A stretch of DNA of 64,000 bases from Selaginella moellendorffii (Eukaryota; Plantae; Lycopodiophyta): assembly GCF_000143415.4 (NCBI RefSeq), contig NW_003314320.1, positions 1 through 64,000 of the forward strand. The letters run 5' to 3'. The position numbers and the translations under genes were made by a program. Positions 8,558-63,996 of this stretch are shown one piece after another; within the stretch, counting starts at the first letter, position 1, and each line of letters starts with the position of its first letter. The notes under the pieces were generated by a model. That model was not told the origin of the DNA. It did no database searches and saw only the letters and a program-made list of their open reading frames with translations.

Positions 8558-8565
8558 ATGCATCC

Positions 8566-12007: not shown

Positions 12008-12124
<117 letters not shown>

Positions 12125-14658: not shown

Positions 14659-14739
14659 CCCGAATGCCTCCTTCAAGTGGTTTAAACGCTTAAAACTGTT
14701 ATTAAGAGATGAGTGTTTTGCTTAAATGATGAATTTTGG

Positions 14740-18920: not shown

Positions 18921-18927
18921 GTTTCCT
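18866..18927 (-). promoter_or_regulatory. Putative -1 frameshift signal of A2 (A GGA AAC + pseudoknot)
   Basis: Sense strand: AGGAAAC GAGGAG TCGTGCGAG TAAC GGAGGG AC CTTGCACGA ATAAGTCAGTGAC CCCTCC. Confidence 0.75.
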
Positions 18928-29430: not shown

Positions 29431-29530
29431 GAGCAAGCTCAAGAAGGCCAAGGTAAGCTGGTGTGGATTTTAAGAAATTTAAGATTTAGAATTTAAAGTT
29501 TTAAAAATCTATAAACCTTCGAACTCAAGA

Positions 29531-31847: not shown

Positions 31848-34800
31848 TGTAGCACACGTGGTTTTGACCATTTATCCTATAGTGATTTACCATAGGATAA
31901 CACCACGAAGCGGAACCTAAACCCTCTTTATGCCACATGACACATGCCACGTGTTATATGCCACATGTCCAAAGGACAGTGGTGTGGAACCCGAGGTTCA
32001 GGGCCTTGGGCCACTGAACGAAGGAACGGTGCCAAACTCCCAAGCATGAAGCCAAGGAGTGACGGAACCGAACCACAGAGCAACTCCCAAGCATACAGCC
32101 CAAGGAGCGAAGGGACAAGAGCCCGGAGCGACTTGGAATAGTCATGGAGCAACCAGCATCCCAATGCCAAGACCAGCATGCAAAACGGAGCCAAATAGAG
32201 TCTAGCGCTATTTTGGCATACTGGTAGCCTAACGTGAGGATATAGGTACTCCACCAGCTAGCATGGAATGGAACTTGGGCTTAGACCCAAACTGGACACA
32301 GAACAAGGACAGGCACACAAGCAGGAGCTAGACTATGCCTCAAGTTGGTCGGCTATGCCCGACCTACTCACTATTCCTATTATACATTTGAAACCTCCCT
32401 TAGTATCAAGAGTTAGTCTCTGGGACAAGCTCGAAACTTACTAAATATGGAATGTCCTTAGATTGTGAATTTGGACACGGGACGAACACCATTGTGTTCA
32501 GACTGATCTCTACATTCCGTAGATATGCCAAATGAGCAAATCTGGACACTTTCCATAAATAGCATTTGGGACCGAAATGAGACTAACACAAAGGGCATGA
32601 TAGCGAGGGTGTTTGGCAGACACGGTAAGCTATCATCTAGCGATATTGAGGGACCAATCTCAATACGCAAGGGTTCTTGTCACTAGCAAGTGCAAGACAA
32701 AACGAGACGGGAACTCCTTACTGGGCTAAGTATGCTTAGCTAATAACACGTAGGAATTCCATTCTTATGCTCATCCGATTTAAGTACACTCGAAATGCCT
32801 AGTTAACTCCACTAGCACAAGAGGGACTGATAAAGGGTCTAGCAATACCGACCTCCTGCCGTCGTGGCAGTAAGGAAAGAGTGTCCGTAAGGACTAGTCG
32901 ACAGGTAACTTTCGATACCCGAAGTCATATGCGCGACACTCTCCCCCCCTAGGGAAGATCGACGTCCTCGTCGATGCATACTCCAGTCTAGAATACCGCC
33001 AAGGAAACAACTCTAGAAAAAGTTCACGGAATTCACACTATGTGAGAAATGCACCAACTTAAATGAGTGAGGGGGCAACCTCTTTGTCTAACGCGGATGC
33101 GCTACTAGCTCAGACACCTTCCGACCGTCGCTGACAAGGAAATGACCAACAAAGTTAGCCACCCTTGCTGCTCTGGGAGTCACCCAGCTTACAAAAGTGT
33201 GATATGCCCCTGCCTGCAAGGATATAGAGAGAGAAGCCAAAGGCCCCAACCCTCCTGAGCAAAGAAACCAAACTTGTCTGTAAGGTTTAGATAGACTACT
33301 GTCAACAGGCAGTTAGAGGTATTTACACAGTCACGCCCTTTGAATGGAATAAGAAACATCGACAGAGAGGCAGGTGATGTGACCAGTCAACAGTAGCTAC
33401 CCCATGACGAGAGATTTCACCATGCACATGAAGTGCTGAAGCCAGTCTGCCTATACTGGCCCAAACTCAAAGATCAATATATGGACCATATCAAAGTTAT
33501 AGACAATGATATCTAAGAGACTTAATTATCAGTGAATAAAGCTTAGATTAGAACACAAAAGTATTCCAAGTAAGTTATTATCTGATAAAGCAGTATTATA
33601 GTTTAGGAACCACCAAGCTCACAATCATTGGAAAACATAGGATTCACTATCCAACAAAATTCAATAGCAAGTATATCATCAAGTACACTCAATGAGAAAA
33701 CTTAACTATCGAAGATTGTAGACAGTATGTGAAACAACTTACGAAAGATAACTTAAAGAACACTGAGTATCATTGACTGGTAGGTAAAATGCTTGCGAAT
33801 GTATCACCCGAAGGAAATAACATCTTAATCGATCAGAACTAACTCAAGCAACAATCAACAGAACAGAATGAATGTGGCAAGACCAACAAACACTCATTCA
33901 TGCCAATTATCACATAAGTTAATCTGAATAGATCCTGGTCAATAATACCAAGGAACCAAAGTTGCTTAAGTAAGTGTCAGCAACATCCTATCGATATCTC
34001 AAACCCAAGAGACCAATCCAGAGCAAACCACAAAGAACATGTGGTATTGCAAAAAGCCATAAGCCATCAAAAAGAACAACTAACCATCATGAAAGATCAT
34101 CAATCATCCCATCAATAATGCATAATCGTCATCGAAGAAAGAATCCACCATCCTAAAGAATGGCAAATCATTCTAGATCAATGATAATCAAGCAAAACCT
34201 TTATCAAGGATAATCAACTATTCTAGATGATAGTCAATCATCATCAATGATTGCTAGATGCAAAAGCCAACTTTAACATTGAAGCTAATAAGCCAAAATG
34301 CCTTCCCCAACAACTCCTAGCAAATGGAGCAATGAGCATAAAAACTCAAGGAACCAAAAGCTCGAAGAAGGCTATAGCTAAATTTTTGTTTATAATGATC
34401 ACAAGTCTTGTATGAACTAACTTCAATGCTAAAGAAGAAATCATAGTACAACCCACAATATCCTTCTCAACACATCTAGAAGTCAAACTTCATAATACAA
34501 AGCTAATAGAGAGCATATCTACATCGATCCAAAAACTAAGCACAATGAAGCTATACTCAACAAGTGATCATTGAATGATCCTCCATGAATCCATTTATAG
34601 CAAGACGTAACTCACTTCATAATAAGCCCAAAAAAAAAAAATCATTAATGATCGTTATATCCTGAACTCAAATCCAGCAAGGACTCAACATTCTAATATC
34701 GATCACTAACTCTTCCTCTCGCAGAGTTAGCATAGTCCATGACTAAATCACTTTTCAAAGAAAAGCTAAAGCTCAACCCTACTAAATAATTTCGTCTAGA

Positions 34801-37800
34801 ATACAACTAACTTAAATTTGCCACTTAGCTCGTTTGAACATCAATACAGTTGCTAACTAGCAATTGTACAAATATAAATAACACAAAGCCATAGCCAAAT
34901 CATCAACACTATCTTCATCAAGACTAAAGAAACTCAATATCAATCCTTGCAAGGATATCTCATTTCACTCAGATCTCAATATTAACAATGTCAATGACAA
35001 GGCATCACTTCAATGTTATCAACACCAAAACAAAACTAGAAGAAAGCACGAGTGAATCACTACTCAAAACTCTCTAGCAACCAAGCTAACCAAAGTCGAA
35101 GATACTTTAGTTAGTATCCAAGACCAATCCTCCAACAAAACTTAGTTACAGACAACACTTCATCAAGGAGTGATTCACCACGTCTAAGACTCAATGAAAT
35201 CCAATACTATAGACTAGATGTAACCAAATGATATCAACAGAGATAGAGTCGACATGTCAACATGAAAAGCTCATGTAAGTCTAATGACATGATCCTGCGC
35301 AACATCATCCGGTAAAGCAAGCCCATCACTGCTAAATCATCATCGAGCGAAGCAAGTATCAACAGTCTTTGGACAAAGTCTACAAGTAATCACTAGTCGC
35401 AAAGCAACTAACAATCACTCCTCAACTTGCCTTCACAAGACCCAAACACCAACTCTTGTCATTAAGTTATATACTTGTCCAACATGAACGTGATACCCCA
35501 GGTATGAGATAAAAGTTCATAGACAAGCACAAACTAAATGACCACTTGAATCCAACTCAACCGCGATAAGCTCACCAAAACATTTAACCACTAACTCTGA
35601 GCATGTTTTGAAGAGGCTAACTATGCATGATCAACACTCAGTCAAAATGAAAGTGAAGATCATGAGATGGACTCATGTTGGTACACAACCTCCACTTAGA
35701 TAAAGCTATAGTATGGGTACCAACATCTCAAACTCAAACAACTAAGTTGGACATCACTATCCTCAGCCAAAGCACAGGGCCACCAAGACCAAGTCAAGAT
35801 TAGTGAGAGCTCACTACTCTCATAGAGTCTAAGCGAAATGCAAGGTGCAACCTACCACCGAGCATAATGCTACAAAAGAAAGGCACAAGAGTCACCCTTC
35901 TTAGAAAAGTGTAAAGGCCACTTTTCTACACCAACTCTAGACTCTATTCAACTCAATTGCTTTAGCCCCAAAAGTCAGCATCCCTTTCGGGCTGCGTCAT
36001 ACAAACTATTTACTAAGGTCTAACCCAACCAAACGACAGATCAGCCATTGGAAAAGCCTAAGAAAATTTATGGAAAAATTTCCATCTTAGAGAAAGAATG
36101 ACTCTCAGTCCAAGATTGCAAACTTTCAAGACTCAACCAACTTCCTCCTACTAACAACTTCACATAGGTTCACCTCAACACGAATTCTCACGACCCATAA
36201 TATGCTTAAGCATCGAACATCTTTGCCCATTTTTCCAATATCCAACACTGACATCCGCAAAGTGCAAAATGAACATTTAAGGCTTGATCACGAAGATCAT
36301 ATCTTCGGATATTCACATTGCACTAACACTCTTCTTCAATCACCTTCAAGATCCAATGTGAAGCCAAAACACTAACAAGAAAAATGACATGGAAAATCAA
36401 GTTTCAAGATAAATTCCTTATCACTTGAAATAACAATGCCACGTCCACTAACACAAGTGTTAGTGATGTCAATGCCATAACTACATATCTTCTCCATCCG
36501 ATAATCTACTCCAAATGTTAACGGATAAACAAATAAGTCATAGCAAGTGAATGTTATAACCATTTTTCCAACACCTAATGGGCAAACTCAAGGAAATAAA
36601 GTACCAACTTAAGCCTAGCATAATGGACCACCATCAAAAATCCAGTTAAAGCTACTACAATGCTACTTCGTGCAAGTAGACTAGCTTCACTATCAACCAC
36701 TTTAGGGTTGATCATCATTTAACCAAGCAACTTCGTAAACACATTGCTCACTATCACATGGGTATGATATAAAATCACAATGATTTGATCATCAATTGAG
36801 CAACACCACAAACAATGCCTATATCATTACTACAAAATTTATATAAGTATCAAGTGCCAACTCGATTCGACAAAATGCAACACAATTGCCACACTTCACC
36901 GATAAAGATTTATAACACCGAACACCACTAACTTTTGTTCACAACACAGTCAAGCTCATGCCACTCTCTTTCCTACCAAACTCAAAACTAATCCAACACC
37001 AAGCTACTCAAAGAGCAATAGCAAGATTCCCCAGAAAAGAATTGAGCATTGCAACCCACATCTTCAATAGCAAGCCTAGACAAAATGGTATAGCACTTCA
37101 CTGCTATCCATCCCACAACTCACCATTGTAAGACTATCATCTCCAACATGCATCAAGATAGGGACTTTTGTTTGCATGATGTGAACACGAGCAATGAGTT
37201 AACACCTCGTTGCAAATTATCTCTCCAAGAAGAGAAAATGATTTACGTGTTTGATCCTTCGTCCTTGACGACTCTCTTTCCGGCCTTATCTTGACTAAAC
37301 CTCAAGCTTGCATTCGCATTGCCTTCAGTTCAATCCAAGAAAAGTTTATGAAAGAGCACGGCAATGATTACTTGAATCAATAGACCAATCCCCACAGTCT
37401 TGATTGATTCACCCATAATCATGCCTAGGAAGGATCCACTAGTGCTGTTCTAAACAACTACAGACCAGCCTATTTGCCACTCATAACAAACCTAGGGAGG
37501 TTTGCTTTCACCCATAGTACATGGAACAACTCATGGAACCAATGATAAGCTAACATTAATCCTGCCAACTCAAAGTGTAACCTCGAGTTTCTAATGTGCC
37601 ACACTCACGAGCCCAAGGGCAAACTCGTGTAAACAGAACAACTCAGTCTACCCTATGAGCCCAAGAGCAAGCTCACATAATATGGAACAACAAGGTAACC
37701 AAAACCTATAACAAGGAACCAATGCGAAGTCTTTACACCAAAACGCGTACCCATTTGGATCATTGTTTTCATCTTTACGTATGCAATGAGACTAGTTACC

Positions 37801-38973
37801 CAATCTCATTGGATAGCACTCGCTGAGACTCTATCTCTGATACCAAATGTAGCGCACGTGGTTTTGACCCTTTATCCTATGTGATTTACCATAGGATAAC
37901 ACCACGAAGCGGAACCTAAACCCTCTTTATGCCACGTGACACATGCCATGTGTCATATGCCACATGTCCAAAGGACAGTGGTGTGGAACCCGAGGTTCAA
38001 GGCCTTGGGCCACTGAACGAAGGAACGGTGCCAAACTCCCAAGCATGAAGCCAAGGAGTGACGGAACCGAACCATGGAGCAACTCCCGAGCATACAACCC
38101 AAGGAGCGAAGGGACAGGAGCCTAGAGCGACTTGGAATAGTCCTGGAGCAACCAACATCCCAATGCCAGGACCAGCACGCAAAACAGAGCTAAATAGAGT
38201 CTAGTGCTATTTTGGCATACCGGTGGCCTAACGTGAGGATATGGGTACTCCACCAGCTAGCATGGAATGGAACTTGAGCTTAGACCCAAGTCAGACTTAG
38301 AACAAGGACAGGCACGCAAGCGGGAGTTAGACTATGCCTCAGGTTGGTCGGCCATGCCTGACCTACCCACTATCCCTACTATACATTTCCCCCCTTGAGG
38401 AACACATGCTTTGGGCTTTCACCCCAAGCCTCCCTTAGTATCAAGAGTTAGTCTCTAGGACAAGCTCGAAACTTATTAAATATGGAATGTCCTTAGATTG
38501 TGAATTTGGACACGGGACGAACACCATTGTGTTCAGGCCGATCTCTACATTTTGTAAATATGCCAAATGAGCAAATCTGGACACTTTCCATAAATAGCAT
38601 TTGGGACCGAAATGAGACTAACACAAAGGGCATGATAGCAAGGGTGTTTGGTAGACACGGTAAGCTATCATTCAACAATATTGAGGGACCAATCTCAATA
38701 CGCGAGGGTTCTTGTCACTAGCAAGTGCAAGACAAAACGAGATGGGAACTCCTTATCGAGCTAAATATGCTTAGCTAATAACACGTAGGAATTCCGTCCT
38801 TATGCTCGTCCGGTCTAAGTACACTTGAAATGCCCAGTTAACTCCACTAGCACAAGAGGGACTGATAAAGGGTCCAGCAATACTAACCTCCTGCCGTCGT
38901 GGCAGTAAGGTAAGAGTGTCCGTAAGGACTAGTCAATGGGTAACTTTCGATACCCGAAGTCACATGCGCGACA
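31848..38973 (-). mobile_element. Non-autonomous LTR element, family B copy 2
   Basis: LTRs 31848-32938 and 37848-38973; PBS CTCTGATACCA at 37835-37845; PPT at 32939-32950; interior colinear with B1; TSD not intact. Confidence 0.93.
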
Positions 38974-45101: not shown

Positions 45102-46862
45102 CAACACTATTATAGTTGAATGATTAGAGTGTAAGTGAACACTACTTTTTTAGGAGTTCCACTCCTACTTTCAACTTTCTAAGTTGGAGTTTTTAGTTCA
45201 AACATGTTATGCTCATTAAACTTCCATTTTGACCATTGCTATATAACACCATTTTGGCTTCACTTTGGGGGATAAGGATTTGTGTCTCACATAGGGTTTT
45301 TTCTCTTGGGTCTGGGTGAAGGTGGATAGTATTAGGATTTGCAACATTCTAAATCCAAGGAGATTAGAATTTTTGGATCTCCAATTAAAATATAAGGCTG
45401 CAATCATGCTAAAGTGAATGTAAAGCAAAAGTTGATTGTCATCATTTTCTCCTATTTTAGTTCTAGTGGAGATGCCCATATAATGCTAACCACGAATTTG
45501 CCAACTCCAACTTCATTGATATTCAAAGCTATTTATAACGTTTTTTAGTTTTCTTGCCCTTCTATCAACATGCACTCGTTTTTTGCATAGGTTTGTAAGT
45601 GAGCTTCAATCCACATGTAATGGCAACATCTTCTTTGAGCTATCACCTCTTATTAGTTCAAAACAAAAGGGGATGGAGGTCAAGCAAGACATCTATAGCT
45701 AGTACAAAATCAAAACCACACACTTCAAACATTTTAAATACACAGTATTTATAGTTCATTCTAGTGGGTATTTAGATTGCATGAAAAAGGCATGCAATTG
45801 AGAGTATGGTAAAAATTTCATATTTTTTGAAGGATTTGTAATCAATCCTCCTATCCGTGACACCATTAATATTAAATTCAAGTGTCAGTTTTGCAAAAAT
45901 GTTTTATTATATCATGCCATTTGCAACTTTCTTCCATAGGATAGAGAGGCTTGAAGATATTATAATGATAAAATCTAATGTAGTACCTAAAGAATGGTCG
46001 GTTGATACTGGGGTTGCGTTCACTTTATATGAGATTAAAAATCTTAAGAAATCTTGTTTTAATCTTGAGAGGAAGAGAGTTGAAAACATGAGTAATAGAA
46101 CTAACACTATTCCCATAGAGATGTATAGAAGACTTGTAAGAAAAGGTAAGGTAATTAAATTTATTAAGGTAAAATAAGTTTAGTTTAGACATTTGAGTGT
46201 GAGATTCTTTTCATGAAGTACATCACTGCGCTAGCAAAAAAGTATACTATAAAAACAAAAAGTGAAGAGTATATAATTATCATTTAAGACTTTTCTTCTT
46301 GCTCATGTTCAAACTTTATAAAATGCAAGGAACATAAAAAGGCATATACTCCTTGCAAGCATATATACTATGTCTTAATTAACATTTTGCATTATATAGT
46401 GGATACTTACTATTGTTGAGTTATAAAAGATTTTAGAGGTAATTAGATTATGTGTATTCTCTACCAATATTAGAAACTTTTATATTTTATATAATTATTA
46501 GAAATACATACTTTTCATTTTATATACTTTTTATTTTTAATTTTTTTAAATTTTATATACAAGAGTTCTTTTTGCAATAATGCCCATAATATTCATGTTT
46601 CTCATAGATGCATAGCCTTCCAAAAGAATCTTAATTCAAAAGAATCTTAATTCAGACATGATAATTTATAAAAAGCAGAATGGATCTAAATCTTATCTTA
46701 TTTACAATTCTGATGAACCTATATATTTTGGCACATAGAATATTGATAAGAAATCTCTTACAAAATATTTTTATTAATAAACAGATGTTAAAATATATTG
46801 CAAAGTTAGGTTTGCCATGAACCTTAACTTCTGAAACTTTGTAATATTTTTATTGAACTACA

Positions 46863-47462
46863 TTAGTCAGCTCGTGAATTAAAAGGGTTATAAAATGACC
46901 CAACGCTTAACACATGCCAGATGCAATTTTTGCCGACTACAATGTCCATTTTCAGATGCAGAATGTCTTGGGAGCTTTTAAAGCTCCCCAGGAGCAATTC
47001 TGCTTCGGATTGGTATTCTCCAGTCCTCGAAGCTGCAGGCTTTTTCACTTCGATGAGAGCCCTCAGGCCGTCAATCGCTGTCCCTGCTAGGATAGATTGC
47101 ACCAAGCAGATGGCGGCATCGGAAGTGCCACTGAAATCGGCTGAGAACACTGCACTGCTCACGGAGAGCCACTGCTGGTGCCTTGTCGCGGCGAACCACC
47201 CAAATTTTGGGGGCAACTTGACGTGGTCCTTCAGATGGTCCAGGTAGGAGGCTGTTTGTGAGCCTTCCCCGACGATGCTCCACGTATACGGAGGAAGTGG
47301 GCTCGGCACTATTCTGTCCTCTTCGGCCAAAACCACCTCCCTCACCAGTCGGCCACGCCGGAGGACACAAACCGCATCGTACGATACATGGGAGACTTGG
47401 TAGTGTGGCCTACGCTCACCTCCTCTTCTTCCTCTTCTTTCTTCCTCTTCATTTTCACAATT
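46863..47462 (-). pseudogene. Crinkler-type PD-(D/E)xK restriction-endonuclease-fold ORF (no in-frame ATG, C-terminus truncated)
   Basis: PPYTW..E..Q..YL..L, SGTSD, LIEVKK and YQSEAELL motifs. Confidence 0.6.
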
Positions 47463-47492
47463 CTAGGGTTCTTTGGTGTTCCTTTTGTGATC

Positions 47493-50019
47493 ATGGCGGC
47501 TGTGGGGTACTTGTACAAGCGGCTGTATGCGGGTGCGCCACCTCAATGGCAGTTGATAGATGTTGGCCGACATGTCCGTGCAGCATCCCAGGTATGCTAT
47601 TTTGTGCTTGGTGTCTTACCCTGAATCCCTTGCAGCATGGCGCGGCTGCCATCGAGGAGAAGATGTATGTGGTAGGAGGATGCTGCACGGACCGATACTT
47701 GAACGATGTGCTGGTGAGTTAAGTATCTTTCTCAGGTTCTTAGTAACACTCTCGTGGAGGTTTTCGATTTGGGAGGCTTGAGGTGGTCGACAGCCCAACC
47801 TTGTCCCGTGTCGTGCGCCGGCCATTCCGTGGTGAGTGAGGCTATTCTTCAAGTTGTTTATAGGGGGCTTTGCTTAAACACGGTCGACGAGCTTTGCAGG
47901 TAGCAAGTGGAAAAACGCTCTTACTCGTTGTTGGCATTCCGTCTGATGAAAAGATGCGCGGTACTGTGTGGCTTTTGTTTTCCTCCTTTCCATGCCTTGG
48001 GCTCATCAATCTCCGTGTATGCAGTGTACCAATTTGACACGAATCAGTGGTCACGTTTGAAGACGGGGGGAGACACTCCGGTAAGCAAGCATTCTAGATG
48101 TTTTAGCTTGTCGTTAAATCTTCAAGTCATAGGCTGCAACTCGCGGTCACTCCACCACCCTGATCGGGAGCAAAATATGGGTGTATGGCGGTGTGGATTT
48201 TCATGGTCAGCTGCGCCGTGAGCTACATGCACTCGATCTGGGAAGCAATCAGTGGGAGCTGATCGAAGCACGGTAATATATCAATCCGCAATTCCTGTTT
48301 TACTTGCGGCCTCCATGGCAGTGGCGTCATCCCACCAGCGCTTTCTTTCCATGCTGCTGTGCATGAGGGCAACCATCTGTACCTTTTCGGAGCTGGCTCA
48401 TCAGGCTTCTGCAAGAACCTATACGCACTGGATCTCGTAGAGGTATGCACGGAGTAAGACGCAACTCTGATGGTGTCGCCAAATTGTTTTGCAGAGAGAA
48501 TGGTCCAGGTATCCAGATCAAGGTCCTGCCCTCGTGCCTGCCGCACGTTTTGCAACTGCAGTCACTGAAAACCAGTGCTATGTTGTTGGTGGTAAATTTG
48601 GCTTTCTGCTGCTCCGTTTATACCTCATATATCTATAACAGGCTCTACGAAAGAAACCATGCTACTGAACATGGAGTCTTTGGAGTGGACTGTAGTGTGT
48701 GCCGAACCTCGTTTGGCTACTGAGGTAAGTGCTTAAGTTGCACTTGTCTCTCTGACTACTAAGTCTACGTAACGTGTAGAGCCTGAGCTTGGTGCACGCA
48801 AGAATCAAAGGTCGAGGCGCTCTGGTTGCTTCAGGGGGGAATCCGGTACGTGTGTGTTCCGTCTTGGACGCCGCAAGGGCGTGTTCTTGACAATGAACTC
48901 CAAGATTTTAGCTCTATGTGTTGGCCGCTCACCCGATTGATCCTCTGCCCTTCTTGCCTGCAGTTTAGCGTCTTTCTACTCAAGACTATGAAGTCATATC
49001 CGGTGCTTCCGCATCCGATGGGCAAGTGCCAGGTGAGGAGCGTAGACGGGCCACTTCTGGAGCTGTTTGAGATTCCAGACGCAGGAGAGCAGGCCCTTAA
49101 GATTATAGACAGGCTTTGGACCAAGGTGGGGAACGGAGGCGACTTGGTGAGGGACGGCCGTCCTCTGGAACGTGACGATGTCATCTTTCCAGGAGACGAG
49201 CTAACATTCCGCCCGAATGATTTTGTTGGAATACGTGGTAGCATTCATCACCAGGTCTGTGAGGTCCGTCTCATGGCACTTGGAGGCTGTCAGCTAGTCC
49301 TCGCCGCGGCGAAGATCGAGCTCATTAGAGGGGAAGGGTGGCTAGAACCGCGGGAGGAAATTGAGAGCCAAGCCTTCGCAGGGTGGAATAGCAGGAGGCC
49401 AGGGGACACGATGGAGTACCTGGTGGAGGGTGCTAAAGTTCCCCGTTTTTACAGGCTGGAGCATGTAGCTAACGATGAGGGCACATTCATGGAGGAGATA
49501 TCGACCACAACCCCGGACGAGTTCCCCTACACCCTCTGCTTCAAACTGGACGCGATGCTCATGCACATGAGTGTGGCCGAGGACATCATCACGGGCTACT
49601 ATATGAAGGAAGAGATTGGCGAGGTGGACATCTGGAGGGCTCTCGTGATGTTGGTGGGAGTGAACATCAGATGCCGCACCCTCAAGCCGTGGATGGTGAT
49701 CACGGACCTCAAAGACGAATGGCACTTCGCGTGGATGGACTGGCCACGCATGTACGTGTGCAAGGCGTGGAGCAGGAGCCAGGGACTGGGGATTCTCTGT
49801 GACCTGTGCCACGACTACAACCTGGTAACCTCGCCTGAGACGAAGGGCTGTCTCTCGAACCTGCCTAGCATCTTCACTCGCGCTTGTCCGGGGTTCAAAT
49901 GGGATATGGATGAGGAGACGCGGGTGATGTTCGCCCCTCGCCCGCCTGTCTATCATAGGTGTGCTGAAACTGGCAGGGCACTCAAGCAATATAGACCTGA
50001 GGAGCTTATTTATAGGTGA
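47493..50019 (+). CDS. Kelch-repeat (ACBP4/5-like) protein fused to a Crinkler-like ubiquitin-like + REase-fold C-terminus, ~642 aa, 11 exons
   Basis: Exons 47493-47591, 47636-47713, 47760-47831, 47900-47960, 48025-48080, 48133-48272, 48322-48442, 48495-48591, 48642-48724, 48780-48845, 48964-50019 splice to 1929 nt with no stop. Kelch motifs HGAAAIEEKMYVVGG, GHSTTLIGSKIWVYGG, HAAVHEGNHLYLFG. Last exon contains PWMVITDLKDEWHFAW. Confidence 0.8.
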
Positions 50020-50102
50020 TCAGTTGCTGTACCATTGCAATCTTAGTGAGTATTTCTTATCCTCCTCAAACAAACTGTCTTGGATATTGAGTCTTTGTAT
50101 TG

Positions 50103-50162
50103 GTCTGGGCCATGACTCTCAAGGACAAGGCCAAGGCAGGGGTCACCATTCGCCGCTTTTAG
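50103..50162 (+). pseudogene. DUF4419 3'-end remnant D3 (start of duplication copy 2)
   Basis: GTCTGGGCCATGACTCTCAAGGACAAGGCCAAGGCAGGGGTCACCATTCGCCGCTTTTAG is nearly identical to the D1 end, and the following 3' flank also matches. Confidence 0.9.
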
Positions 50163-50619
50163 CCTGCATGCCTCCTATCAGGTGGTTTAAACGCTTAAAA
50201 ACTGTTTATTAAGTTATCAAGAGATGATTGTATGTGTGAACTACATGCGCCAGGAGCTGGATCAGCAGGCTCGCTGAAAGAGCTGAAGTGGAGCTTATAT
50301 ATTTATGCTTAAAAATTCAAAGATCCCAGAGCACTAAACTTCCAAGAACACCAACACTGAAACGCTGGATCTTGCTTGTGCCAAGGAGTTTCACAGCCCG
50401 GCTTTTGCGGGCCACTGTCTCGCAAGCTCATCATAAAGCTCATGGGAAGCAAATGAAAATTCCAAGTGAAAGAGCTGTGGGTAAACTCTTTTTGTTGATC
50501 AATCCATCTTTGGATATTTATTCGCTTTTTCCATGTTGTTAGGTTTTAAGGATATTTCTAAGAAAGAAGAAGGTTTATATTTCTAGCAATCCAAACAGTA
50601 ACTTTTATGCTTGCTAAAT

Positions 50620-52150
50620 TTTGGATTTTTATATTAAGCAAACCAGGAGGATGGTAATGAATATATCTAGAATATGCTTGGATATTCTAGGTATTCATTT
50701 AGATTAATGTTGTATTTATAATTTATAAAAAATGTTTATAATTTATAAACTTTCTTAAACCCTAAGATATTCTTTTTTATTCTATCATCTAATGGTTTAT
50801 ATGCAATATAAATTACAAACATGCTTATAATTATAAACTTTATTTAATAAATTAGATTAATAAGTAAAAATAACACTACTATTAAGAAAACCAAGCATTG
50901 TACTTGGTATCCTGAAAATTTTACTTCAACAGTTTTAGTCAATTTGAGAATAGAAATTTCTGTATTAAAATTAAACGATTTCTAAATTTATATTCATCAA
51001 ATTATGGTGGAAAAGTAGAAGGAGAATTAATGAGGAATTTAGTAAATAACTTAAAAACTAATATACAGATGATATGTGTAATAAATGTGAAGTTAAATAT
51101 CCAAGGAATTTTTATTTCATCTTTCATCCTTATAGAGTTGAATTAAAAATGGGAAGCTTTACTAGCTTAACCTTTATCCAAGTTAAATTTTAACATCTCC
51201 ACATTAAAATAATTTGCTGCACATTGTATGTAATAATTCTTGGTTTTCTTAATAATAGTGTTATTCTTATTTAATATTTTTGAATAATCGAAATAATCTA
51301 TAATTATAAACATGTTTCTAATTTATAAATCATTTCATATCAACCATTAGAATAAATAGTAAATTGCTATGCATTGCATGTAGTAATGCTTAGTTTGCTT
51401 AATAGTAGTGTTATTCTTACTTATTAATCGAATTGATCAAATAAATCTTATAATTATAAGCATATTTCTAATTTGTAAACACAAGATTAATAAAAAGAAA
51501 GTTTATAAATTATAAACATGTTTATAAATTATAAATACAAAGATTAATCTAAATGGATAATAACCGTTAGATGGTAGTATATCCTAAAATATTCAAGCAT
51601 ATTTTAGGTATATCTACTATCATCCCAGTCCCCCTGTAGGCTTGCTTAAACAAACCAAAAATATACTAGAACGTGTTAGGAAAGTTTAGATTAATCTAAC
51701 TAAATAACAACCGTTAATATCCTAGAATATTAAATATATTTTAGGCATGTTCACTACCATTCAGGTTTTGCTTAAGCAATGAGTTTTTAGTTTCTTAAAG
51801 TAGTGGGATGGTAGTAAATATACCTAAAATATGCTTAGATATTCTAGGATATTCTACCATCTAATGGTTGTTATTCATTTAGATTAATCTTGCATTTATA
51901 ATTTATAAATATATTTATAATTTATAAAATTTCTTAAACACTTTCTAGTATACTCATTTTTATTCTACCATTTAATGGTTGATATGCAATAAGAATAATC
52001 TTGTGTTTATAAATTATAAACATGTTTATAATTATAACTTTCATTGGATTAATAATAACAATAACATTACTATTACAAACCAAGCATTACTACATGCAAC
52101 ACACAGCAAATTATTTTATTTTTAAAAATAAAAAATATTATATTATTTAC
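50620..52150. repeat. Array of AT-rich repeat units in direct and inverted orientation
   Basis: Forward units ~50640-50900 and 51800-52100; reverse units ~51230-51780. Confidence 0.75.
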
Positions 52151-52481: not shown

Positions 52482-55400
52482 GGTTGGAACCAAGGAGAGA
52501 TCAAGGTGCAATCAAAGGGGTGTGTATATAAGGTGAGAAGTGCTGTACTGATATATGTCAAGTACTATTCCTTTACACCTGGTATCAGAGGGATCAAAAG
52601 ATTCTCTTTTCTAGGGCTCTGGTTTTTCCAATCAGTTAGTGGTGTACAATGATTTGTGGCATGAACCATAGAAGCAGTGCAGAGAAGTGGTGTGGATTTC
52701 TTCTAAATAGGCTAGACAGTAAGGGCTTAGGTTGAGATGGGGAAGGGAAAGGAGGAAGGGAAGCTTCTTCTTTCTCATGATAATGCATTTTGATGGTTTT
52801 CCATCATGGAAGCCAAGTTCTCCAAGAAGAAGGTATTGGGAGTAGTCACAGGGTGTGAATAAGTGCCAGTTCTTCTCCCTCCAGAAGAAGTTGCTCAAAT
52901 GTCTATGGAGCAAAGACAAGCATATCAGTGATGGCATGATGATTTCAAACAGAATGATGTCACTGCAAGAGTGATCTGATGGAGTGAGTGCATTCAGAGG
53001 ATATCTTGAAGGTGAAAATTTCTCAAACAGCAATTGCAGCTTGGAAAACTCTCCAACAGTTCTACTGTGAGTAGTCTTGGGTGATAGAGATGAGCATCTT
53101 CCAAGAGATGGTGAACTGCCACCAAGGTCCACATGAGAAGGCTCAAGATTACATAGATCGGATGACAGCTCTTAGGGATAAGTTGCAGAATATGAGATCT
53201 AAATTTTCCAATGCGACTGGAGCTCTCATGATACTCAGACTGAATGAGAAGTACCAGAACGCCAAGATGGAACTCCAAAAAAATTGTCTTTGTCTAGGAT
53301 TGGATCAAGTGATCGCTAACATCCACCACTATGCCAGCTTGAACAAGGTCTTTCAAGACAAGGATGTTGGAGAGTCCAAGGATGAGGAAAGGGTGGTAAT
53401 GGCAGCTCAGATGACTGGAAGAAATTCTTTCAAGTGACAGAAATTTTCAAGTGAACGCAACTCGGTGGAACAAGCACGATAAAAGTATGGGAGTGTTCGT
53501 TGCAATGAATGTTGTGGTTTCGGGCATTTTGCAATGGATTGTCTTTGTCAAAAGGATTGCAAATGAAAGGGGCCGATTGCAAAATTAGCAGCACATGAGG
53601 AAGAGGACAATCTTAATGGTATTCATTTTTCAAGGACTCATCTTTCGTATTTTCAAATTATGCTCAAAGTGGGAAATGTCAAAGTATGAGTTGGCTGCAA
53701 GATAGTGGAGCAATGACTTCAAATAAGATGTTCTTTAGATAGATAAACTATAGGAAATTTGATATGTCAGTTAGCACAGCAAGTGGTGAGGCTTTACAAA
53801 TAATTGTATATAACATAATTTATTTTTCATGTCTTCAACTTGAGGTTGCTAACGTTTTATATGTGCTGAAGCTAGCAAGACACCTTTTTTCTGTCTCGAA
53901 ACTCGTAGAGCAAGGAGTGTACACATTCTTTCATCACACTGCAGCAGATTTTATTCTTCATTGAACACGAATTGCTCAAGCAATGGCCTTGAATGGCCTT
54001 TATTTCCTTTCACTAGACAATCCAAGTGTGCATTCTATCACCTTTTCTAAAACTCGTATTTACAACTATGGCATTTTCGGCTAGGCCACACAAGCTTTCA
54101 ATGAGTGAAGGAAATCCCTGAGCTAGTATTTAAAGTGCCAGACTTAAAGCACACAAGTTCAGACACATGTGAGGTATGTCTTCAAGCTAAGATGAAAAAG
54201 AAAACACTTCCAAAGAAAGTGTCAACTTGAGGTAAACTATTTTAGACTTAGTTCATATCGGACATTTGGGGAGCATCACCGGTAAAGTCACTCAATGGTG
54301 CTCATTACTTCCTACTAATTGTGGATGATCTAAGTTGTTATATAGTTGTTTATTTTTTAAGACAGAAATCTGAGGCACCTTGTAAGTTCCTGGAATGGAT
54401 TTGAGAGTCAGAAAATATACGTGGGATGACAATCCACACACTCAGAGTCGATGGAGGACAGGAGCTTCTCTCACGAGAATTCCAGACGATCCTTGCATCA
54501 CGTGGTATCTTCTTCCAATCTCTATGCCATATGAACATAGTCAAAACAGGTTGTGGAGTGGAAGATGTTAACAGTCCTTGATGCGGCCAGATCAATTCTT
54601 AAGGCATTCAATGTTTCAGTATTCTTTTGGGCCAAGGCTGTGAATACTGCAGTTCATGTGCAAAATATTTTCCCTACAAAAGCAGTCACCATATGAAATT
54701 TGGACAGGTTTAAAACCATCTATTACATATTTACGTGTGTTTGGATGTGTAGGATATGTATACATTTCAGCTGAGGAAAGACGAAATAAATGGGAAGATC
54801 ATTCAACAAGATGTATGATGCTTGGCTATAGTGAGAATACTAAAGGCATATTGTTTTCTTTCGAGAAGATGTACCAGCATACTTTGCCTCGTCAATCAGC
54901 AATAAGAAAGACACCAGGTATTTCTTACATTCAATTCTAACCAAGAGATATGGAAATAATAGTGATGAGGAAAGGTTATCAACTCTAGAGACTTCTCCAG
55001 CAGAACCACCACTACCACTATTCCTTGAACCACCACCTAAGGATTCACTGCCATCTCAAGAAGTTTTGTCTCCAGCTATATGACTCTGAAATCTCAAAAT
55101 GAGGTACTTTGCTTCAGAATTCTAATGAGTTGGATATTGCTTATGCAGATCTAGAGAGTAGTGGCTTATCAAAGCCAAAGCATGGTGAATCTCTAGATGC
55201 TCTAACACTGCCAACACGTTCTCTCAGACCTTGGAAACCTACATCCCGCATTATACATTATTATGCACAAGCAGCACAAGCAATTCACGAGCCAACAAAC
55301 TTAGAAGAAGCACTCTCTGGACCGCAATGTTTTCATTGGCGACAAGCAATGCAGGATGAATATCATGCTCAATTAGAGAATGGTTCCTGGACACTCATTT

Positions 55401-56964
55401 CACCACATGAGGTTCCTTGCAAGGCTTCAATCATACAGTGTAAGTGTGTTCACAAGATAAAATATAAGGAGATAGGTGAGATTGATCAGTACAAAGCAAG
55501 GTTAGTTGCAAAAGGATACACACAGCAAGCAGGAATCGATTATAGTGAGATTTTTTCACCCATAGTTAAAATAGCTTCTATTCGTTTTGTTCTTGCAATT
55601 GCTAATTACTTAGACCTTGAGATTGAGCAGATGGACATCAAGAATGCATTTGTCAATAGCAAGCTGGAAGAACCAGTGTATATGCAGCAACCTCTAGGTT
55701 TTGAGATCCAAGGGAAGGAGCATTATATTTGTAAACTCCACTAGTCCATTTATGGATTAAAACAATCCTGGTATAATACTTTGCACAAGTTTTTTCTAAC
55801 TCTTGGTTTCTCTTGTGCAAGAGCAGATTGGAATCTATATTATTGTTTTTGTGATGGCTCACTTATTCTCATGTGTATTTATGTTGACGATCTCATCATG
55901 GCCGGAAAGACAACAAATCTTAAATGGCTTAAAGAACTACTCTCCAAACAACTTCGAATGACAGATCTTGGTAAAATTTCCTTTTGTTTAGGCTTATAAA
56001 TTGTGCATGATAAGTCCATCAACATAAGTATATCTCAAATCTTATTGAGGAATATAGTGGTTTCTTTACTGCCTGTCTAGTTCCGACTCCAACACTCCAA
56101 TTCAACAAGCTCTCTAAAGTGGATCAACCACGTTCCGAGGGGGAGAAGAAAGAGATGGCTAAGCTACCATATCAAAACGTGGTTGGAGCATTGCTGTATT
56201 TAGCCACATCAAGCAGACCAGATATAGTAGCAGTTATTTCCAGAGTGTGCTAGTTCATGCAAAATCCTGGAAAGAGACAATGCAGTAGAGCGGATCTTTA
56301 ACTACATACAACAAACTTCATCACTTTATCTCGAGTACAAGGGGATGGCAAGAGGAGAAATTGGATTCGGTGCACTTATACCATATGGAATGGTAGATGC
56401 TGATCTTGCTAGTGACCTGGATGATAGGAGATCAACAACTGGGTACATGTTCAAATTCTCTAATGCAATTGTACAAATGATGGTGGCATTGGCTACTTGT
56501 GAAGCAGAGTACAATGTGGTTACGGAAGCTGTTAAGGAAGCTTTATGGATTCGACGCTTGCTCCAAGATATCAGTTTTGAGATGCAAGTACCACTGAATA
56601 TCTACAATGACAACACAGCATGTCTTCAGTCCATCGTGAACCCGGTGCATCATGGGAGAAACAAAGATGTTTCATTACTTTATCAGAGAGCGGATTGAGA
56701 GAGAAGAAGTCAGGCTGAAATACATCCCCACAATAAAGATGACTGCAGATCTACTCACAAAGACTACAATTGAAGTCCGACAGTTTGAATGACTACGACA
56801 ACTTGGACTGGTTTCACAGGGGGAGCAGCGATCTGATTAAAAGACATCAGATTGAGGGGGAGTGTTGGAACCAAGGAGAGATCAAGGCACAATCAAAGGA
56901 ACTAGGATGTGTATATAAGGTGAGAAGTGCTGTACCAATATATGTCAAGTACTATTCCTTTACA
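52482..56964 (+). mobile_element. Ty1/copia LTR retrotransposon, defective, ~100-bp LTRs
   Basis: LTRs 52482-52577 and 56863-56964; PBS TGGTATCAGAG at 52580-52590; PPT GAGGGGGAG. Domains: gag, CNECCGFGHFAMDC knuckle, WLQDSGA protease, LWHFRLGH, integrase, RT (YKARLVAKG, MDIKNAF, YVDDL), RNase H (DADLASDLDDRRSTTGY). Confidence 0.95.
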
Positions 56965-58862
56965 CCTGTTAGCAATACTGGAGCTACAAATGACCACAAG
57001 TTGTCTTCGATGAGTCCTTGCGCAAGCAACTCCTGTACTCGCTCCTCGGATGCTCTTGTTGACGTTGGAGAGCCTGGCTCCAGATAATATGATGCCTTCT
57101 ACCCGTTCTCTCGCTTGCCTCCATATGCGATAGGCCGTCAGAAAACATGAGGAAATCTTGGCACTAGTTGCTTCAACTCCTCTGGCATCACAGTCCCTTA
57201 AATATCCTGCAAAGCTTCCTCCTCCTCGCCCGATCGTGACCGTTTCTCCATGCCTCTAGCAACCGCTTTCTCTCTGCATTCTTCTCACTAGATATGTCTG
57301 ATTGTCCTTGTTCCTGCCCATCCAAGGTCCCCTCGCCTTTGAAACCCACTTTCTTCTCTGCTTTCTTTGGATCCAGTTTCTCTCCTTTCTCCGTCCCGGG
57401 CCTTTCATTTCAGCCAACTCCTCCCCGGCCGCAGCTTGGCCCTCATCACTCCTATGCACCACTGCTCTTTTAACTCTCAACTTCCTTCTTAGGGTGGCGG
57501 TTGGGCCTCTAGGAAAAGCGGACTCGTGGAAGGCTCGTGTCAATCCCTCCAAGAGAACGCGTCAGGAGCTACCTCCCATGGCTCCCAAGGTGACTCCAAC
57601 CCCTGAACCAAAATCCACTCCCACATCTCCAAAGCAAAAACTGCACAGATTGGAGAATGGTGCTAACCTGGATCGAAGGTGCAGGGACAATGATTCTTCC
57701 GCTGGCCGCGAAAGACTGAAAATGCCAAAGCCCTCAGCGCCACCTTGTAGCCAGCGAATCTACCCTAAACATTACGCTCTTTCATGATTATCGCCCAGGT
57801 CGCCAAAGCGCTAAAACAATCAGTATGATTGATCTAGCATGGACGTCCCCATAGCTCTCATAAATGCAATCCAGACGAGACCATGCACGGGAGGAACAGC
57901 CCCTGGCACCTTTCTCACAGTTCTTCCCAGAGTTTCGTCCCAGCTCCATTCCTCGCCTTGACAACCACAGGCTTCCCACAGTAACCACTGACGGCCAGTC
58001 TTGCACATAACAATTTCATCGATTGAGGATACCCGTTTACAGGATTTCTAGAAAGAATGTGTTGGCCAAGTGCTAAGGGGACGTAAAGAGGACTGGACAA
58101 GAAAAAGGAAGACAAGAAGCGAAACGCTTTGGCTCGCCACAACCAGTACCGAGAGAGCAAAAATTGGGCCGGTAAAAGTTTCGGGCCGGAGTTAAAGCGC
58201 TGCGGCGATAGGCTGGGCTTTCGGGAGGCAGCGCGCTAAGATTGTGTGCCTGGTGATGGAGCACATGCAAGAGCCCCGGCCATTCGCGGCGGTGGAGGAG
58301 ATCGATCCATCCATCATGGTGACCCGGCGGATTTCTCAGGGCCATTCCAGAGCAACTTCCGTGCCTTTTTGGGCAGATGATCCAGCGGTGGTGCGTCCCG
58401 TTGGTGTCGCAGCATGGCGCCGAGCAATCGATGCTAGTGCTTGGGGAATTCGGGAGCTCTCGACGCCGCATTATCGCGCGGAAAAGAGAAAGAGAGGCTT
58501 CTAACCACAACACAGCAGGAACAGCAGCAAAGCCAGCGTCCGGGAGTGCACTTCTTGCTTTGGAAAACTCCGCCGTGGAACAGTGGATTCGATCGTCTAG
58601 CGCTTTAGCGTGAAGCAGGACACTGCTCAAAGGTGAGTAAAAACAAGTAGCTTTGTGTGTTCTGCGATTGGCCATTTGTTTCCAAGCGCACACAACAGGC
58701 CAAGAATCTAGCCTCGATGGTTTCTGTTCATTGTACACGTACACAGAAATGGAACGGTAGCCTGTTATGGAAATCCATCATATTTGGCAAGTGCACAGTG
58801 ACCAAGATGAGATCTTCACAGTCAAAACCGATTCACTCCAATCCTCATATATAACTGTGGAA

Positions 58863-59100: not shown

Positions 59101-59768
59101 GCAAAACCCTTTAAATTTTTGGTTTGCTTAAGCAAATATTTAGAATATATTTAGATATTTTAGGATATTCTACCATTTAATGGTTGTTATCTATTTAGAT
59201 TAATTTTGTCTTTATAATGTATAAACAGGTTTATAATTTATTAATTTGCTTAAACACTTTCTAATATATTCTTTTTTATTCTACCATTTAATGGTTGATA
59301 TGTAATCTTGTGTTTATAAATTATAAAAAAATTATAATTATAAACTTTTATTTGATCAATAGGATTAATAAATAGGATTAAGCATACTAACACTTACCAA
59401 ATTATTTATGTATCAGGTATTTCAGAATTTTTTTCCTAAACCTAAACTTTATGAAGGTTTTGACAAGAAAAGCTGCATCTTCAATCTCCTTCTGTGTATA
59501 GGTTTTAATTTTTGGCCAAGGAAGCATTTATCTGTGAATGTTTCTTTTCAACATGTTAGATATCGGCTCTTCTCAAACTTTTGAGGGATGACCCTTTGGG
59601 CCACATTTCACCTCAATCTCTATTCCTTTCACATGGTCTTTCTTCTTGGGATTTCATTTAGCTATTAAGTTGATTTTGTACTCTCTTTTTTTATGTCACT
59701 ATATGGTATGGCAATGCTACCAGCAATCGTCCAGAAATTTAGCATGCCACGACAGGGGAAGAGCTGTA

Positions 59769-59820: not shown

Positions 59821-60502
59821 GCTCAGTTTTTCAGTTTCTAATGATCAGTGGCTCTGGCTAATCTCTTTCTTTCATACCGGCTGTGACTTTGAACGAATCG
59901 TTCCTTCTGGTCATGCCTTGATATTAGAGCACACCATATATACATGAACTCACCACGCACGGACACCTCCACAAACACTATTTCATCGCAAATTTTCCCA
60001 TTGACACCACACCATTGAAACCTGCAGTCCTCCAAAACTGTAGCAAATCCTTTTCTTTTTCTTGGAATCGAGAGACAGTTGACGATCTTTCCGCACCTGC
60101 GTGGCGAGCCTAGAGATATTTCAAAGTTTTCTTTTTGTGCGTGTGCCTGTGTTATGACAAGCTGCCAAATTGTTTTTGGCATTCTTTCAAGTGCAGCGTT
60201 AAACCATCTCCAAGGAAACGGGATAATAGAAGCAGGATAATAACACCACTTTGCCAATTGTAAATATGGGCTTTAGGCCACGCCTCGATTTCTAGCGCAT
60301 GGTTTTTCTTCTTGGGAGGCTGGTTCCTTATAGCTGGTGATCAATCGACTCGACTTTTTCGCTCCTCGTGCTTCTTCTTCGTTGGAGTTGAGTTTTAATA
60401 TCAATTTGGCCAATAGAAATTTAACATGTAATTCTTGCCACGTGGGTGAAGGTCCATCAATTTAAACAGTGTGGATTGCTAGCGAGGGAGGGAGAAGAGA
60501 GA

Positions 60503-61862
60503 ATGGTGACATTTAGGGTTTGCGACAAGGATCCGGCACAGGTGAAGCAATCTCCGCCCGGCCGCGGCCATTTCCTGGAGGGATTCAAGGATTTCCAGCA
60601 GGAGGGCTGCTACCAGGTGTTGCAAGGCACTAGCGTCGACGCGAGTGCCTTTCATCCACAGAAGAATGGCTTCGTCGCAAGCGCCATCAAAGCTTACAGC
60701 TCTCACCACAATCTGGTAATTCGCCCCGACGATGTGTGGCTCGCCATCGCCATCCAGTTGGGATTCTTCGTCAATGGCAATGCCGAGGCGCTGCGATCCA
60801 TCTTTGTGGATCACGAGGGCAAGAAGGAGCTGGTTGTGTCCCAGGCGGCCGCGCTCCACAGCGCCGACTATGGGCTCCTGGCGAGGGAGATGAGCGTGGA
60901 GCTCAAGAAGAATATCAGGGACGGGAAGGTCTGCGACTGGATCTTGCCGAGCTTCTCGACTACAACCAAGAACGATGTGGTGGTGGGCAGTGTGGTTCTC
61001 ATGGCAACCTTCAAGAGCTACTTCGAATATACGTAAGTTGATTCACCCTCTTGGTTCTAGCTATGGTTTTGCTGTGTGTGTGTGTGTGTGAGTTTTCCCT
61101 TCTTTTTTGTTTTCTTTTCCGTTTTTGTCTGCGTGAAAAACGACGTGATAGAGTCTAATCACCTCTCACTGTCATTCTATTGTCCATTCTGCGTACTTGT
61201 TTTTGTTTGCGTTGCTGTCAATGGTACGCTATGTGTTCTCCAGGTTTGTCTCTCGCTGTAGTAAAATCTTTGAAGCTAAGAGCTTGTTTCTATCCAGGTT
61301 CCAACTTTTGTGCGGGATTCCGTACGTGACTCTCCTGGGAACCACCGAGGATTGGGAAGAAATCGATCGGAGGATCGACGAACTGGACAAGTATGGGAGC
61401 GAGTGCCAGAAGTGGCGTGTCATGCTCAAGAAAATCACTGCCCAGTTTGTGGAGAGCAGCAAAGGCAACGTTGACACGGACTTTTGGAACAGGATTTGTC
61501 ACCACCTGGGAGGAGGATCGGGGCCGACATACATCTCCGGCTGGATATCTTCCTTCTGTGTTTTTGACAGCGATGGAAAGTGGCGTGGCGATCAAAAGAG
61601 TTACCGGGATCTCTTCTCCGGGGACAAAGCTGTGGAGCTTGAGTATCCGTTCATCGACGACAGCAGCATTGCTCCCGGCTACCTCACGGTGGATGTCAAG
61701 GTGGACGACAACGGGAAAACTTACGAGGCTTTCATGTTTGCTGGACACATGGGATACGAAGCTGTGGAGGATGACAACAAAGGGATTGCTCCAAAAGCTG
61801 TCTGGGCCATGACTCTCAAGGACAAGGCCAAGGCAAATCCCAGCCATGATGGCTTCCTTTAG
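60503..61862 (+). CDS. DUF4419-domain protein D4, 364 aa; exons 60503-61032 and 61298-61862
   Basis: Same motifs as D1; GT-AG intron; 530+565 nt in frame. Confidence 0.9.
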
Positions 61863-63439: not shown

Positions 63440-63996
63440 AGATCTACGCCCCAGCACGCCCATTTCCTGGAGGGACTCAAAGATTTCCAGCAGGCAGGTG
63501 TTGCAGGACGCCAGCGTGGACGCCAGCGCCTTCCATCCGGAGAGGAATGGCTTCGTGGCGAGCGCGATCAGAGCTTACAGCTTCCACCACAATCTGGTGA
63601 TCAGGCCAGACGATGTGTGGCGCGCCATCGCTGTCCAGTTTGGATTCTTCGTCAATGGCAATGCCGAGGCGCTGCGATCCATCTTTGTGGATCACGAGGG
63701 CAAGAAGGTGCTGGTTGTGACCCAGGCAGCCACGCTCCACAGCGCCGACTATGGTCGCCTATGACTGGAGCTCAAGAAGAATGCCAAGGACGAGAAAGTT
63801 TGTGACTGGATCTTGCGGAGCTTCTCGACATGGATTGTGTTCTTTCTTTTGCTTTTGCTATGATAAGAACTTCCAGGTTCAAACTTGAATGCGGGATTCC
63901 ATACGTGACTCTTCTGGGAACCATAACATTTACCAGTCTTTCATGTTTGCGGGACACATCTGAACCGAAGTTGTGGAGGATGACAACTAAGGGATT
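63440..63996 (+). pseudogene. DUF4419 pseudogene D5 (5' truncated, several internal deletions)
   Basis: AHFLEGLKDF..., RPDDVWRAI, FVDHEGKK, CGIPYVTLLGT, FMFAGH, with large gaps between them. Confidence 0.9.

What the first reader, a model, noticed from the sequence alone, without database searches (positions are those of the whole stretch)
46863..50019. Head-to-head pair: catalytic-type Crinkler REase and kelch-fused, apparently inactive REase
The minus-strand frame keeps PD-(D/E)xK-type residues (GTSD...IEVKK...Q..AEL). The divergent plus-strand gene carries a distant homologue where these read FKLD...YYMKE (Glu lost) but the family tail P..V.TDL...W.F.W is kept. The frames begin ~30 bp apart. 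The layout recalls paired sensor/executor immune genes or toxin/inhibitor pairs. This executor copy seems degenerate, so a chance rearrangement is also possible.
Basis: inference. Interest (0 to 1): 0.7.

Follow-up and report, generated by a model that had tools for sequence, protein, structure and literature searches.

The report
Kelch-fused dead Crinkler nuclease, pseudogene neighbour
A spikemoss gene joins a kelch propeller to a predicted ubiquitin-like domain and a Crinkler-type nuclease domain that has lost catalytic residues, so it is likely a binding protein; the nuclease gene facing away from it is broken, so the two are unlikely to be a working immune pair.

Summary
The layout and motifs are real; a working sensor/executor pair is not supported. 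The plus gene has 11 exons, no stop, and equals a Selaginella moellendorffii RefSeq protein. The Glu of ExK is lost in 9 of 9 kelch-fused relatives examined, yet the C-terminal half of this domain is as conserved as the propeller or more. The fusion was found only in this species. The minus frame belongs to the same broad nuclease family through bridging relatives (39.5 bits, shuffles at most 6.1; direct profile comparison not significant). It is a decaying pseudogene: no in-frame Met before the catalytic motifs, family tail missing, a stop codon in a second allele, and that stop plus 10- and 7-base deletions in a third. Pairing at other loci could not be properly tested. What remains is a small lineage-specific family of domesticated, probably inactive Crinkler modules fused to kelch.

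The parts
47493..50019 (+). Intact 11-exon gene: kelch propeller + ubiquitin-like domain + Crinkler-type REase-like domain. RefSeq X1 starts further up at 47388; 47493 is the likelier start because relatives P0002 and P0009 begin at the matching place.
   Evidence: Spliced translation from 47388 equals P0001 (XP_024544600.1), no internal stop, all 10 introns GT..AG; starts of relatives
47493..48990 (+). Kelch beta-propeller (exons 1-10 and the first residues of exon 11; right edge approximate)
   Evidence: Pfam PF24681 E 2e-56, PF01344 E 7e-25; best solved relatives LZTR1, epithiospecifier, KLHDC3/2
49018..49233 (+). Predicted ubiquitin-like (beta-grasp) domain, in the position of a Crinkler header
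   Evidence: AlphaFold pLDDT 66-85 in blocks of residues 21-80; Z 8.6, rmsd 1.8-2.7 over 64-70 residues; Foldseek best E 1.7e-3, listed rows are ubiquitin-type folds; coordinates
49261..49860 (+). Crinkler-type REase-like domain without the ExK Glu, the Gln and the second Glu; C-terminal half strongly conserved in the family
   Evidence: 68 bits on profile positions 134-214 (relatives were found with this domain); nearest Atlas clusters oomycete Crinkler 0.93; residues; conservation
46971..47288 (-). N-terminal, motif-bearing part of a Crinkler-type REase: pseudogene fragment
   Evidence: 39 bits, best of 2000 shuffles 6.1; BLASTP to P0021 E 2e-6; coordinates
47342..47452 (-). Short frame from the nearest ATG (36 codons, K/E-rich start), out of frame with the REase part; homology to the family N-terminus not shown
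47172..47174 (-). Codon that is a stop in two other alleles
   Evidence: Implied by the antisense translation in gene model P0007 for all 4 codon choices; read directly as G47174A in DNA run X1
46924..46929 (.). Deletion or rearrangement junction of this haplotype, at the 3' end of the minus gene
   Evidence: Two X1 contigs and model P0007 leave the window sequence at 46928/9 with matching other sequence; a third X1 contig covers 46867-46924 and then leaves it
50103..50213 (+). 111-bp piece 94% identical to the end of the DUF4419 gene at 14599-14706; sign of gene-piece shuffling beside the kelch gene

Best explanation
The plus gene is an intact Selaginella chimera of a kelch propeller, a predicted ubiquitin-like header and a Crinkler-type nuclease domain that lacks the ExK glutamate and so likely serves as a binding surface, while the divergent minus-strand nuclease is a broken fragment whose place next to it is likely a relic or chance. 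Shown: gene structure, domain order, residue loss, breaks in the minus gene. Inferred: a whole Crinkler-like unit (header plus REase, all in exon 11) was captured behind a kelch gene once, the fusion then duplicated to about seven loci, lost nuclease chemistry early, and kept the C-terminal half of the fold under selection. Inferred mechanism: a non-catalytic adaptor, in which the dead REase half binds a protein or nucleic-acid partner and the propeller and ubiquitin-like domain link it to other proteins. The partner is not identified; I put about 0.55 on the adaptor reading and about 0.85 on the minus gene being non-functional today.
For: Intact frame equal to P0001. Family of 11 kelch-containing gene models and 2 kelch-less fragments, all S. 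moellendorffii. Glu of ExK replaced in 9 of 9 kelch-fused sequences examined, Lys replaced by Glu in 4 of 9, Gln replaced in 9 of 9. Identity between deep subfamilies (5 pairs): REase C-half 53-62%, kelch 47-53%, ubiquitin-like 33-49%, REase N-half 27-32%. A motif-complete relative (P0020) folds as a restriction-endonuclease domain (Z 10.1, rmsd 3.4, 136 residues to BpuSI). Minus gene: no in-frame Met, candidate rescuing introns are GC 0.59-0.63 (6 scored) against 0.35-0.53 for the 10 real introns; tail missing; stop in P0007's allele; stop plus 10- and 7-base deletions in X1. Ty3 and Copia elements and moved DUF4419 pieces all around.
Against: Two Crinkler-type REases lie back to back and no other segment of the 64 kb scores on the profile (2 of 1210), which chance alone does not readily give unless the family is common in this genome; its copy number could not be measured. 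The minus copy kept G-T-S-D, E-x-K, Q and E, so it was probably working until recently. Splicing could in principle join its ATG to the REase frame: 66 GT/GC-AG choices do so. The plus domain's own model is poor over its N-terminal half (pLDDT 25-44 for residues 141-210), so its fold there is not shown. Loss of activity is read from residues only.
Confidence: 0.65

Rival explanations
1. Relic of a true pair: an active Crinkler-type nuclease (executor or toxin) was once held in check by the divergent kelch-fused dead homologue (sensor or inhibitor); the nuclease has since decayed at this locus.
For: Back-to-back layout with 41 bp between ATGs; shared family; only two such domains in the window; same layout in the P0007 allele; catalytic motifs of the minus copy still readable.
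Against: The kelch fusion is kept at several loci down to about 40% identity; the 5' extensions of two near-duplicates (P0011, P0013) do not match this upstream DNA (best E 2.6 and 0.57, against 8e-55 and 2e-67 for P0005 and P0007, a weak test); the two domains are far apart in sequence.
Confidence: 0.2
2. Working pair today: the minus gene is spliced or started at a non-ATG codon and gives an active nuclease controlled by the kelch fusion.
For: The window's allele has an open frame across all catalytic motifs; near-cognate starts exist; rescuing introns are formally possible.
Against: This allele lacks the part matching profile positions 159-214, the tail strands of the fold; the other two alleles carry a stop before GTSD, one with two frameshifts as well.
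Confidence: 0.04
3. The kelch-fused domain is still an enzyme with a remodelled active site, or its tail is only a passenger on a kelch protein.
For: This subfamily keeps an Asp in FKLD and the Lys of ExK; acidic residues follow the Lys.
Against: The Lys is Glu in the two deeper subfamilies and the Asp is absent there (read from alignment), so no site is shared; strong conservation of the C-half argues against a passenger.
Confidence: 0.11

Closest known systems
CR (Crinkler-RHS) proteins with a ubiquitin-like header and a REase domain (Zhang et al. 2016, known here only through the review PMC5289972, section 11 and passages read, and PMC6131194, passages read)
   Same: [quoted passage not shown]
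   Different: The header is internal, behind ten kelch exons; catalytic residues are lost family-wide; no NTPase or kinase domain; no kelch fusion is mentioned in the passages read.
Head-to-head sensor/executor NLR pairs with integrated decoys (RRS1/RPS4, RGA4/RGA5, Pik-1/Pik-2; recalled, from no call)
   Same: Divergent layout; one partner carries a dead copy of an enzyme domain.
   Different: No NB-ARC, TIR or LRR domain; the supposed executor is a pseudogene; conserved pairing not shown.
Kelch-only propeller proteins (LZTR1, KLHDC2/3/10, epithiospecifier and nitrile-specifier proteins)
   Same: Same Pfam propeller family PF24681.
   Different: Carries a ubiquitin-like domain and a dead REase behind the propeller. 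A likeness to the plant ACBP4/5 kelch region is recalled and was not tested.
Mitoribosomal large-subunit chains that top the fold search of relative P0020 (7a5f_s3 Z 10.2, 3j7y_5 Z 9.4); their identity as mL65/mL37 and as inactive REase folds is recalled
   Same: REase-like fold used without catalysis, if the recollection holds.
   Different: Unrelated role and lineage; 7-9% identity; my one paper search for this link found nothing.

Membership tests
CR/Crinkler REase proteins (plus gene) | Ubiquitin-like header in front of the effector domain | tested here: met
   Model residues about 19-90 of exon 11 align to ubiquitin-type folds, Z 8.6, rmsd 1.8-2.7, 64-70 residues; Foldseek best E 1.7e-3. 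It is internal, not N-terminal.
CR/Crinkler REase proteins (plus gene) | C-terminal domain of the restriction-endonuclease fold, related to Crinkler C-termini | tested here: met
   By homology: phmmer to P0020 E 1.5e-4 in 1.8 billion proteins, P0020 model Z 10.1 to BpuSI, Atlas 0.93 to an oomycete Crinkler cluster. Its own model was too poor over the N-half to show the fold.
CR/Crinkler REase proteins (plus gene) | PD-(D/E)xK-type catalytic residues (D, ExK, Q) | tested here: not met
   Glu replaced in 9 of 9 kelch-fused sequences and in the window copy, Gln in 9 of 9.
CR/Crinkler REase proteins (plus gene) | Assignment to a numbered CR-REase family of Zhang et al. 2016 | not testable with these tools
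   Paper not held; no Pfam or NCBIfam model matched.
CR/Crinkler REase proteins (minus gene) | Catalytic motifs of the family | tested here: met
   GTSD, ExK, Q and E align with the profile, 39.5 bits.
CR/Crinkler REase proteins (minus gene) | Whole, translatable domain | tested here: not met
   No in-frame Met, tail missing in the window allele; stop and deletions in other alleles.
Paired sensor/executor or toxin/inhibitor genes | Head-to-head linkage | tested here: met
   41 bp between the nearest ATGs; same layout in the P0007 allele.
Paired sensor/executor or toxin/inhibitor genes | Both partners intact | tested here: not met
   All three minus alleles seen are broken.
Paired sensor/executor or toxin/inhibitor genes | Pairing repeated at other loci or species | tested here: inconclusive
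   No genome held; only 5' extensions of gene models could be compared; no Selaginella relative of the minus REase was retrieved.
Paired sensor/executor or toxin/inhibitor genes | Physical or functional interaction | not tested
   No complex was predicted and no experiment is on hand.
NLR immune receptors | NB-ARC with LRR and TIR/CC domains | tested here: not met
   Pfam on P0001 and on the minus frame gives no such family.
Kelch propeller proteins | Kelch repeats above the Pfam cut-off | tested here: met
   PF24681 191 bits, cut-off 50.

The most novel reading that the evidence does not exclude
Selaginella has turned a Crinkler toxin module into an NLR-independent decoy: the kelch-ubiquitin-like-dead-REase proteins bind active Crinkler-type nucleases (its own or those of oomycete and fungal invaders) through the conserved half of the fold and neutralise them or send them for degradation, and this locus preserves the remains of the nuclease partner it was once linked to.
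Probability: 0.12. Interest if true: 0.75.

Novelty: new variant of a known kind. Interest (0 to 1): 0.33.

Why it matters
Crinkler-like genes are known in land plants, but why free-living plants keep them is open (PMC12957317 introduction, passages read; PMC5289972 section 11). This family gives a small, testable case of domestication: one lineage, one fusion, loss of catalysis across all subfamilies, and a conserved surface to mutate. If it traps Crinkler nucleases it would be a new form of integrated decoy in a lycophyte. The pair as proposed, however, is not a working system, and the fusion may already be listed in Zhang et al. 2016, which I could not read.

Tried and rejected
No whole genome was held, so neighbours of the other family members could not be read. 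Minus frame against P0020 alone: not significant. Searches for close relatives of the minus REase: 0 of 619 longer candidates; a four-sequence profile gave 2 of 7995, P0020 itself and P0031; metagenome scans 0 of 597 and 0 of 595 stretches; Atlas hits all under 0.9 and unrelated; solved sequences best E 0.39; Pfam and NCBIfam none. The idea that the 36-codon ATG frame is the family's N-terminus (simple frameshift) was tested and not supported: no gain in score over shuffled N-termini (499 of 500 reached it), pairwise 302 and 896 of 1000 shuffles. Expression: no holder is on record as RNA; three runs guessed to be RNA (X2, X8, X11; 0.49, 0.43, 0.30 of the words of 46800-50100) laid no contig on 46863-47418, which is no proof of silence. 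A complex prediction of the two domains was not run, so binding is open. Earlier scan notes: nothing. Papers: no paper holds crinkler+kelch+selaginella or crinkler+REase+selaginella; one holds 'selaginella moellendorffii'+crinkler (listing only); searches listed nothing on this fusion by title or abstract start (10 of 11, 20 of 41, 15 of 27, 15 of 254 listed). Zhang et al. 2016 and its supplements were not held and may list these proteins.

Full report
Source. The last exon of the plus gene is 100% identical to P0001, named by NCBI as Selaginella moellendorffii LOC9644205. No whole genome was held. P0002/P0007 (98%) lie on another scaffold; I treat them as the second haplotype, which is an inference (the two-haplotype assembly is recalled); a recent duplicate would not change the argument.

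The plus gene. Eleven exons from 47388 to 50019 translate, without a stop, to exactly P0001; all ten introns are GT..AG, 44-118 bases. Relatives P0002 and P0009 start at the place matching the ATG at 47493, so that is the likelier start. Residues up to about 330 are a kelch propeller. Exon 11 holds everything else. An AlphaFold model from a 17-sequence alignment has mean pLDDT 54; its best part, residues about 19-90, aligns to ubiquitin-type folds (Z 8.6, rmsd 1.8-2.7 over 64-70 residues; Foldseek best E 1.7e-3, none under 1e-3). A ubiquitin-like header in front of a REase is the usual Crinkler plan (PMC5289972, section 11 read; PMC12957317 passages), so exon 11 looks like a whole Crinkler-like unit captured behind a kelch gene (inference).

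Is the last domain a Crinkler-type REase? No Pfam or NCBIfam model matches. A full phmmer search gave 12 proteins at E up to 1e-3: 7 of 12 are S. moellendorffii models, and of the other five three were looked up there and carry no species name (the other two, also unnamed). None of those five has a kelch match. One of them, P0020 (E 1.5e-4), has the full motif set; its model (pLDDT 69) matches restriction-endonuclease folds: BpuSI Z 10.1, rmsd 3.4, 136 residues; TT1808 8.8; NucC 7.7; two mitoribosomal chains rank first and third. The Atlas puts residues 425-640 of P0001 nearest to oomycete and Mucoromycota clusters at 0.93, the first named Crinkler (a lead, not measured for parts). The domain's own model is poor over its N-half, so the fold is inferred from relatives.

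Family and loss of catalysis. Searches give 11 kelch-containing gene models and 2 kelch-less fragments, about seven kelch loci if four near-identical pairs are alleles. All are from this species; among 4132 long candidates only 3 scored, all kelch fusions of this species (a weak search for absence). In 9 of 9 kelch-fused sequences examined the Glu of ExK is Tyr, Ser or Trp, the Gln is Arg or Lys, and the Lys is Glu in 4 of 9 (P0013 was not aligned, P0023 and P0026 were left out as near copies). Between the deep subfamilies (5 pairs) identity is 53-62% in the REase C-half, 47-53% in the kelch, 33-49% in the ubiquitin-like domain, 27-32% in the REase N-half and 26-34% in the tail. So the half that carried the first catalytic Asp drifted while the other half is held at least as tightly as the propeller. 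That points to a binding role (inference).

The minus frame. It is related to the same relatives: BLASTP to P0021, which was found with the plus domain alone, gives 37% over 59 residues, E 2e-6; to P0020 it is not significant. A profile of 7 outside relatives scores it at 39.5 bits, best of 2000 shuffles 6.1, and it and the plus domain are the only 2 of 1210 window segments with E under 2. One profile member, P0031, was found with a query that contained the minus frame, a small circularity. Direct comparison of the two window domains is not significant.

The minus gene is broken. It has no Met before the catalytic motifs; the nearest ATG (47452) opens a different frame of 36 codons. Splicing could formally join them (66 choices), but six of the more plausible ones have GC 0.59-0.63 against 0.35-0.53 in the ten real introns next door. 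Whether the short frame is the old N-terminus is not shown. The match ends at profile position 158, before the family tail. Gene model P0007 happens to translate the antisense of this region in the other allele: 104 of 105 residues equal the window's, and the one change forces a stop in the REase frame at 47172-47174 for all 4 codon choices. DNA run X1 shows that very change and adds deletions of 10 and 7 bases at 47070 and 47191 (one contig, depth 15). Two X1 contigs and P0007 leave the window sequence at 46928/9 and carry other, mutually matching DNA, which by eye could be the lost tail (not scored); a third contig follows 46867-46924 and then leaves. The window haplotype therefore has a deletion or rearrangement there. 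Three alleles, three broken states: a decaying pseudogene.

Is the pairing meaningful? For: 41 bp between ATGs, only two such domains in 64 kb, same layout in a second allele. Against: the executor is dead while the kelch gene is intact; the domains are far apart in sequence; the 5' extensions of two near-duplicates of the kelch gene (P0011, P0013) do not match this upstream DNA, whereas those of P0005 and P0007 do (weak); the window is made of Ty3 and Copia remains and moved gene pieces, one of them 84 bases behind the kelch gene's stop. The neighbours of other loci could not be read, so an ancestral pair stays possible (about 0.2).

Literature. Read: PMC5289972 (passages and section 11), PMC6131194 (passages on CR-REase 5), PMC12957317 (passages). 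Zhang et al. 2016 was not held; it may list these proteins. Searches showed no paper on this fusion, by listing only. NLR pairs, ACBP4 likeness and the mitoribosomal pseudo-nucleases are recalled, not tested.

Verdict. The lasting result is a Selaginella family of kelch + ubiquitin-like + probably inactive Crinkler REase proteins: a new variant of a known kind, interest 0.33; the decoy reading has probability 0.12 and would deserve 0.75.

Noticed in passing
window 47714-47759: Intron 2 of the kelch gene ends in GAG, a rare acceptor; RefSeq isoform X2 (P0004, P0008) reads differently here and loses the first kelch repeat in both alleles.
   Followed up: no
window 13292-14706, 29528-30623, 60425-61862, 63442-63829: Four copies or fragments of a DUF4419 gene, 66-88% alike in DNA; a 111-bp piece of its end also sits at 50103-50213.
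   Followed up: partly
window 50650-52120: AT-rich repeat family with a 750-bp imperfect palindrome (51360-52113, 67%), with relatives at 14730-15200, 23550-23830 and 59120-59530; looks like a non-autonomous DNA transposon, not tested.
   Followed up: no
window 303-19800, 31845-38973 and 52500-57000: Decayed Ty3-type retrotransposons with about 1.15-kb terminal repeats (1166-2332 / 7413-8589, 97%) and a Copia-type element right of the kelch gene.
   Followed up: partly
window 25315-26349: PPR-repeat frame (PF13041 E 1.6e-28), probably part of a longer or broken gene.
   Followed up: no
proteins P0005 and P0007: The older gene models (SELMODRAFT_422872, 422105) extend the kelch protein by about 125 residues that are the antisense translation of the REase pseudogene; probably annotation errors.
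   Followed up: yes
window 4366-4465: Run of 100 N, an assembly gap.
   Followed up: no
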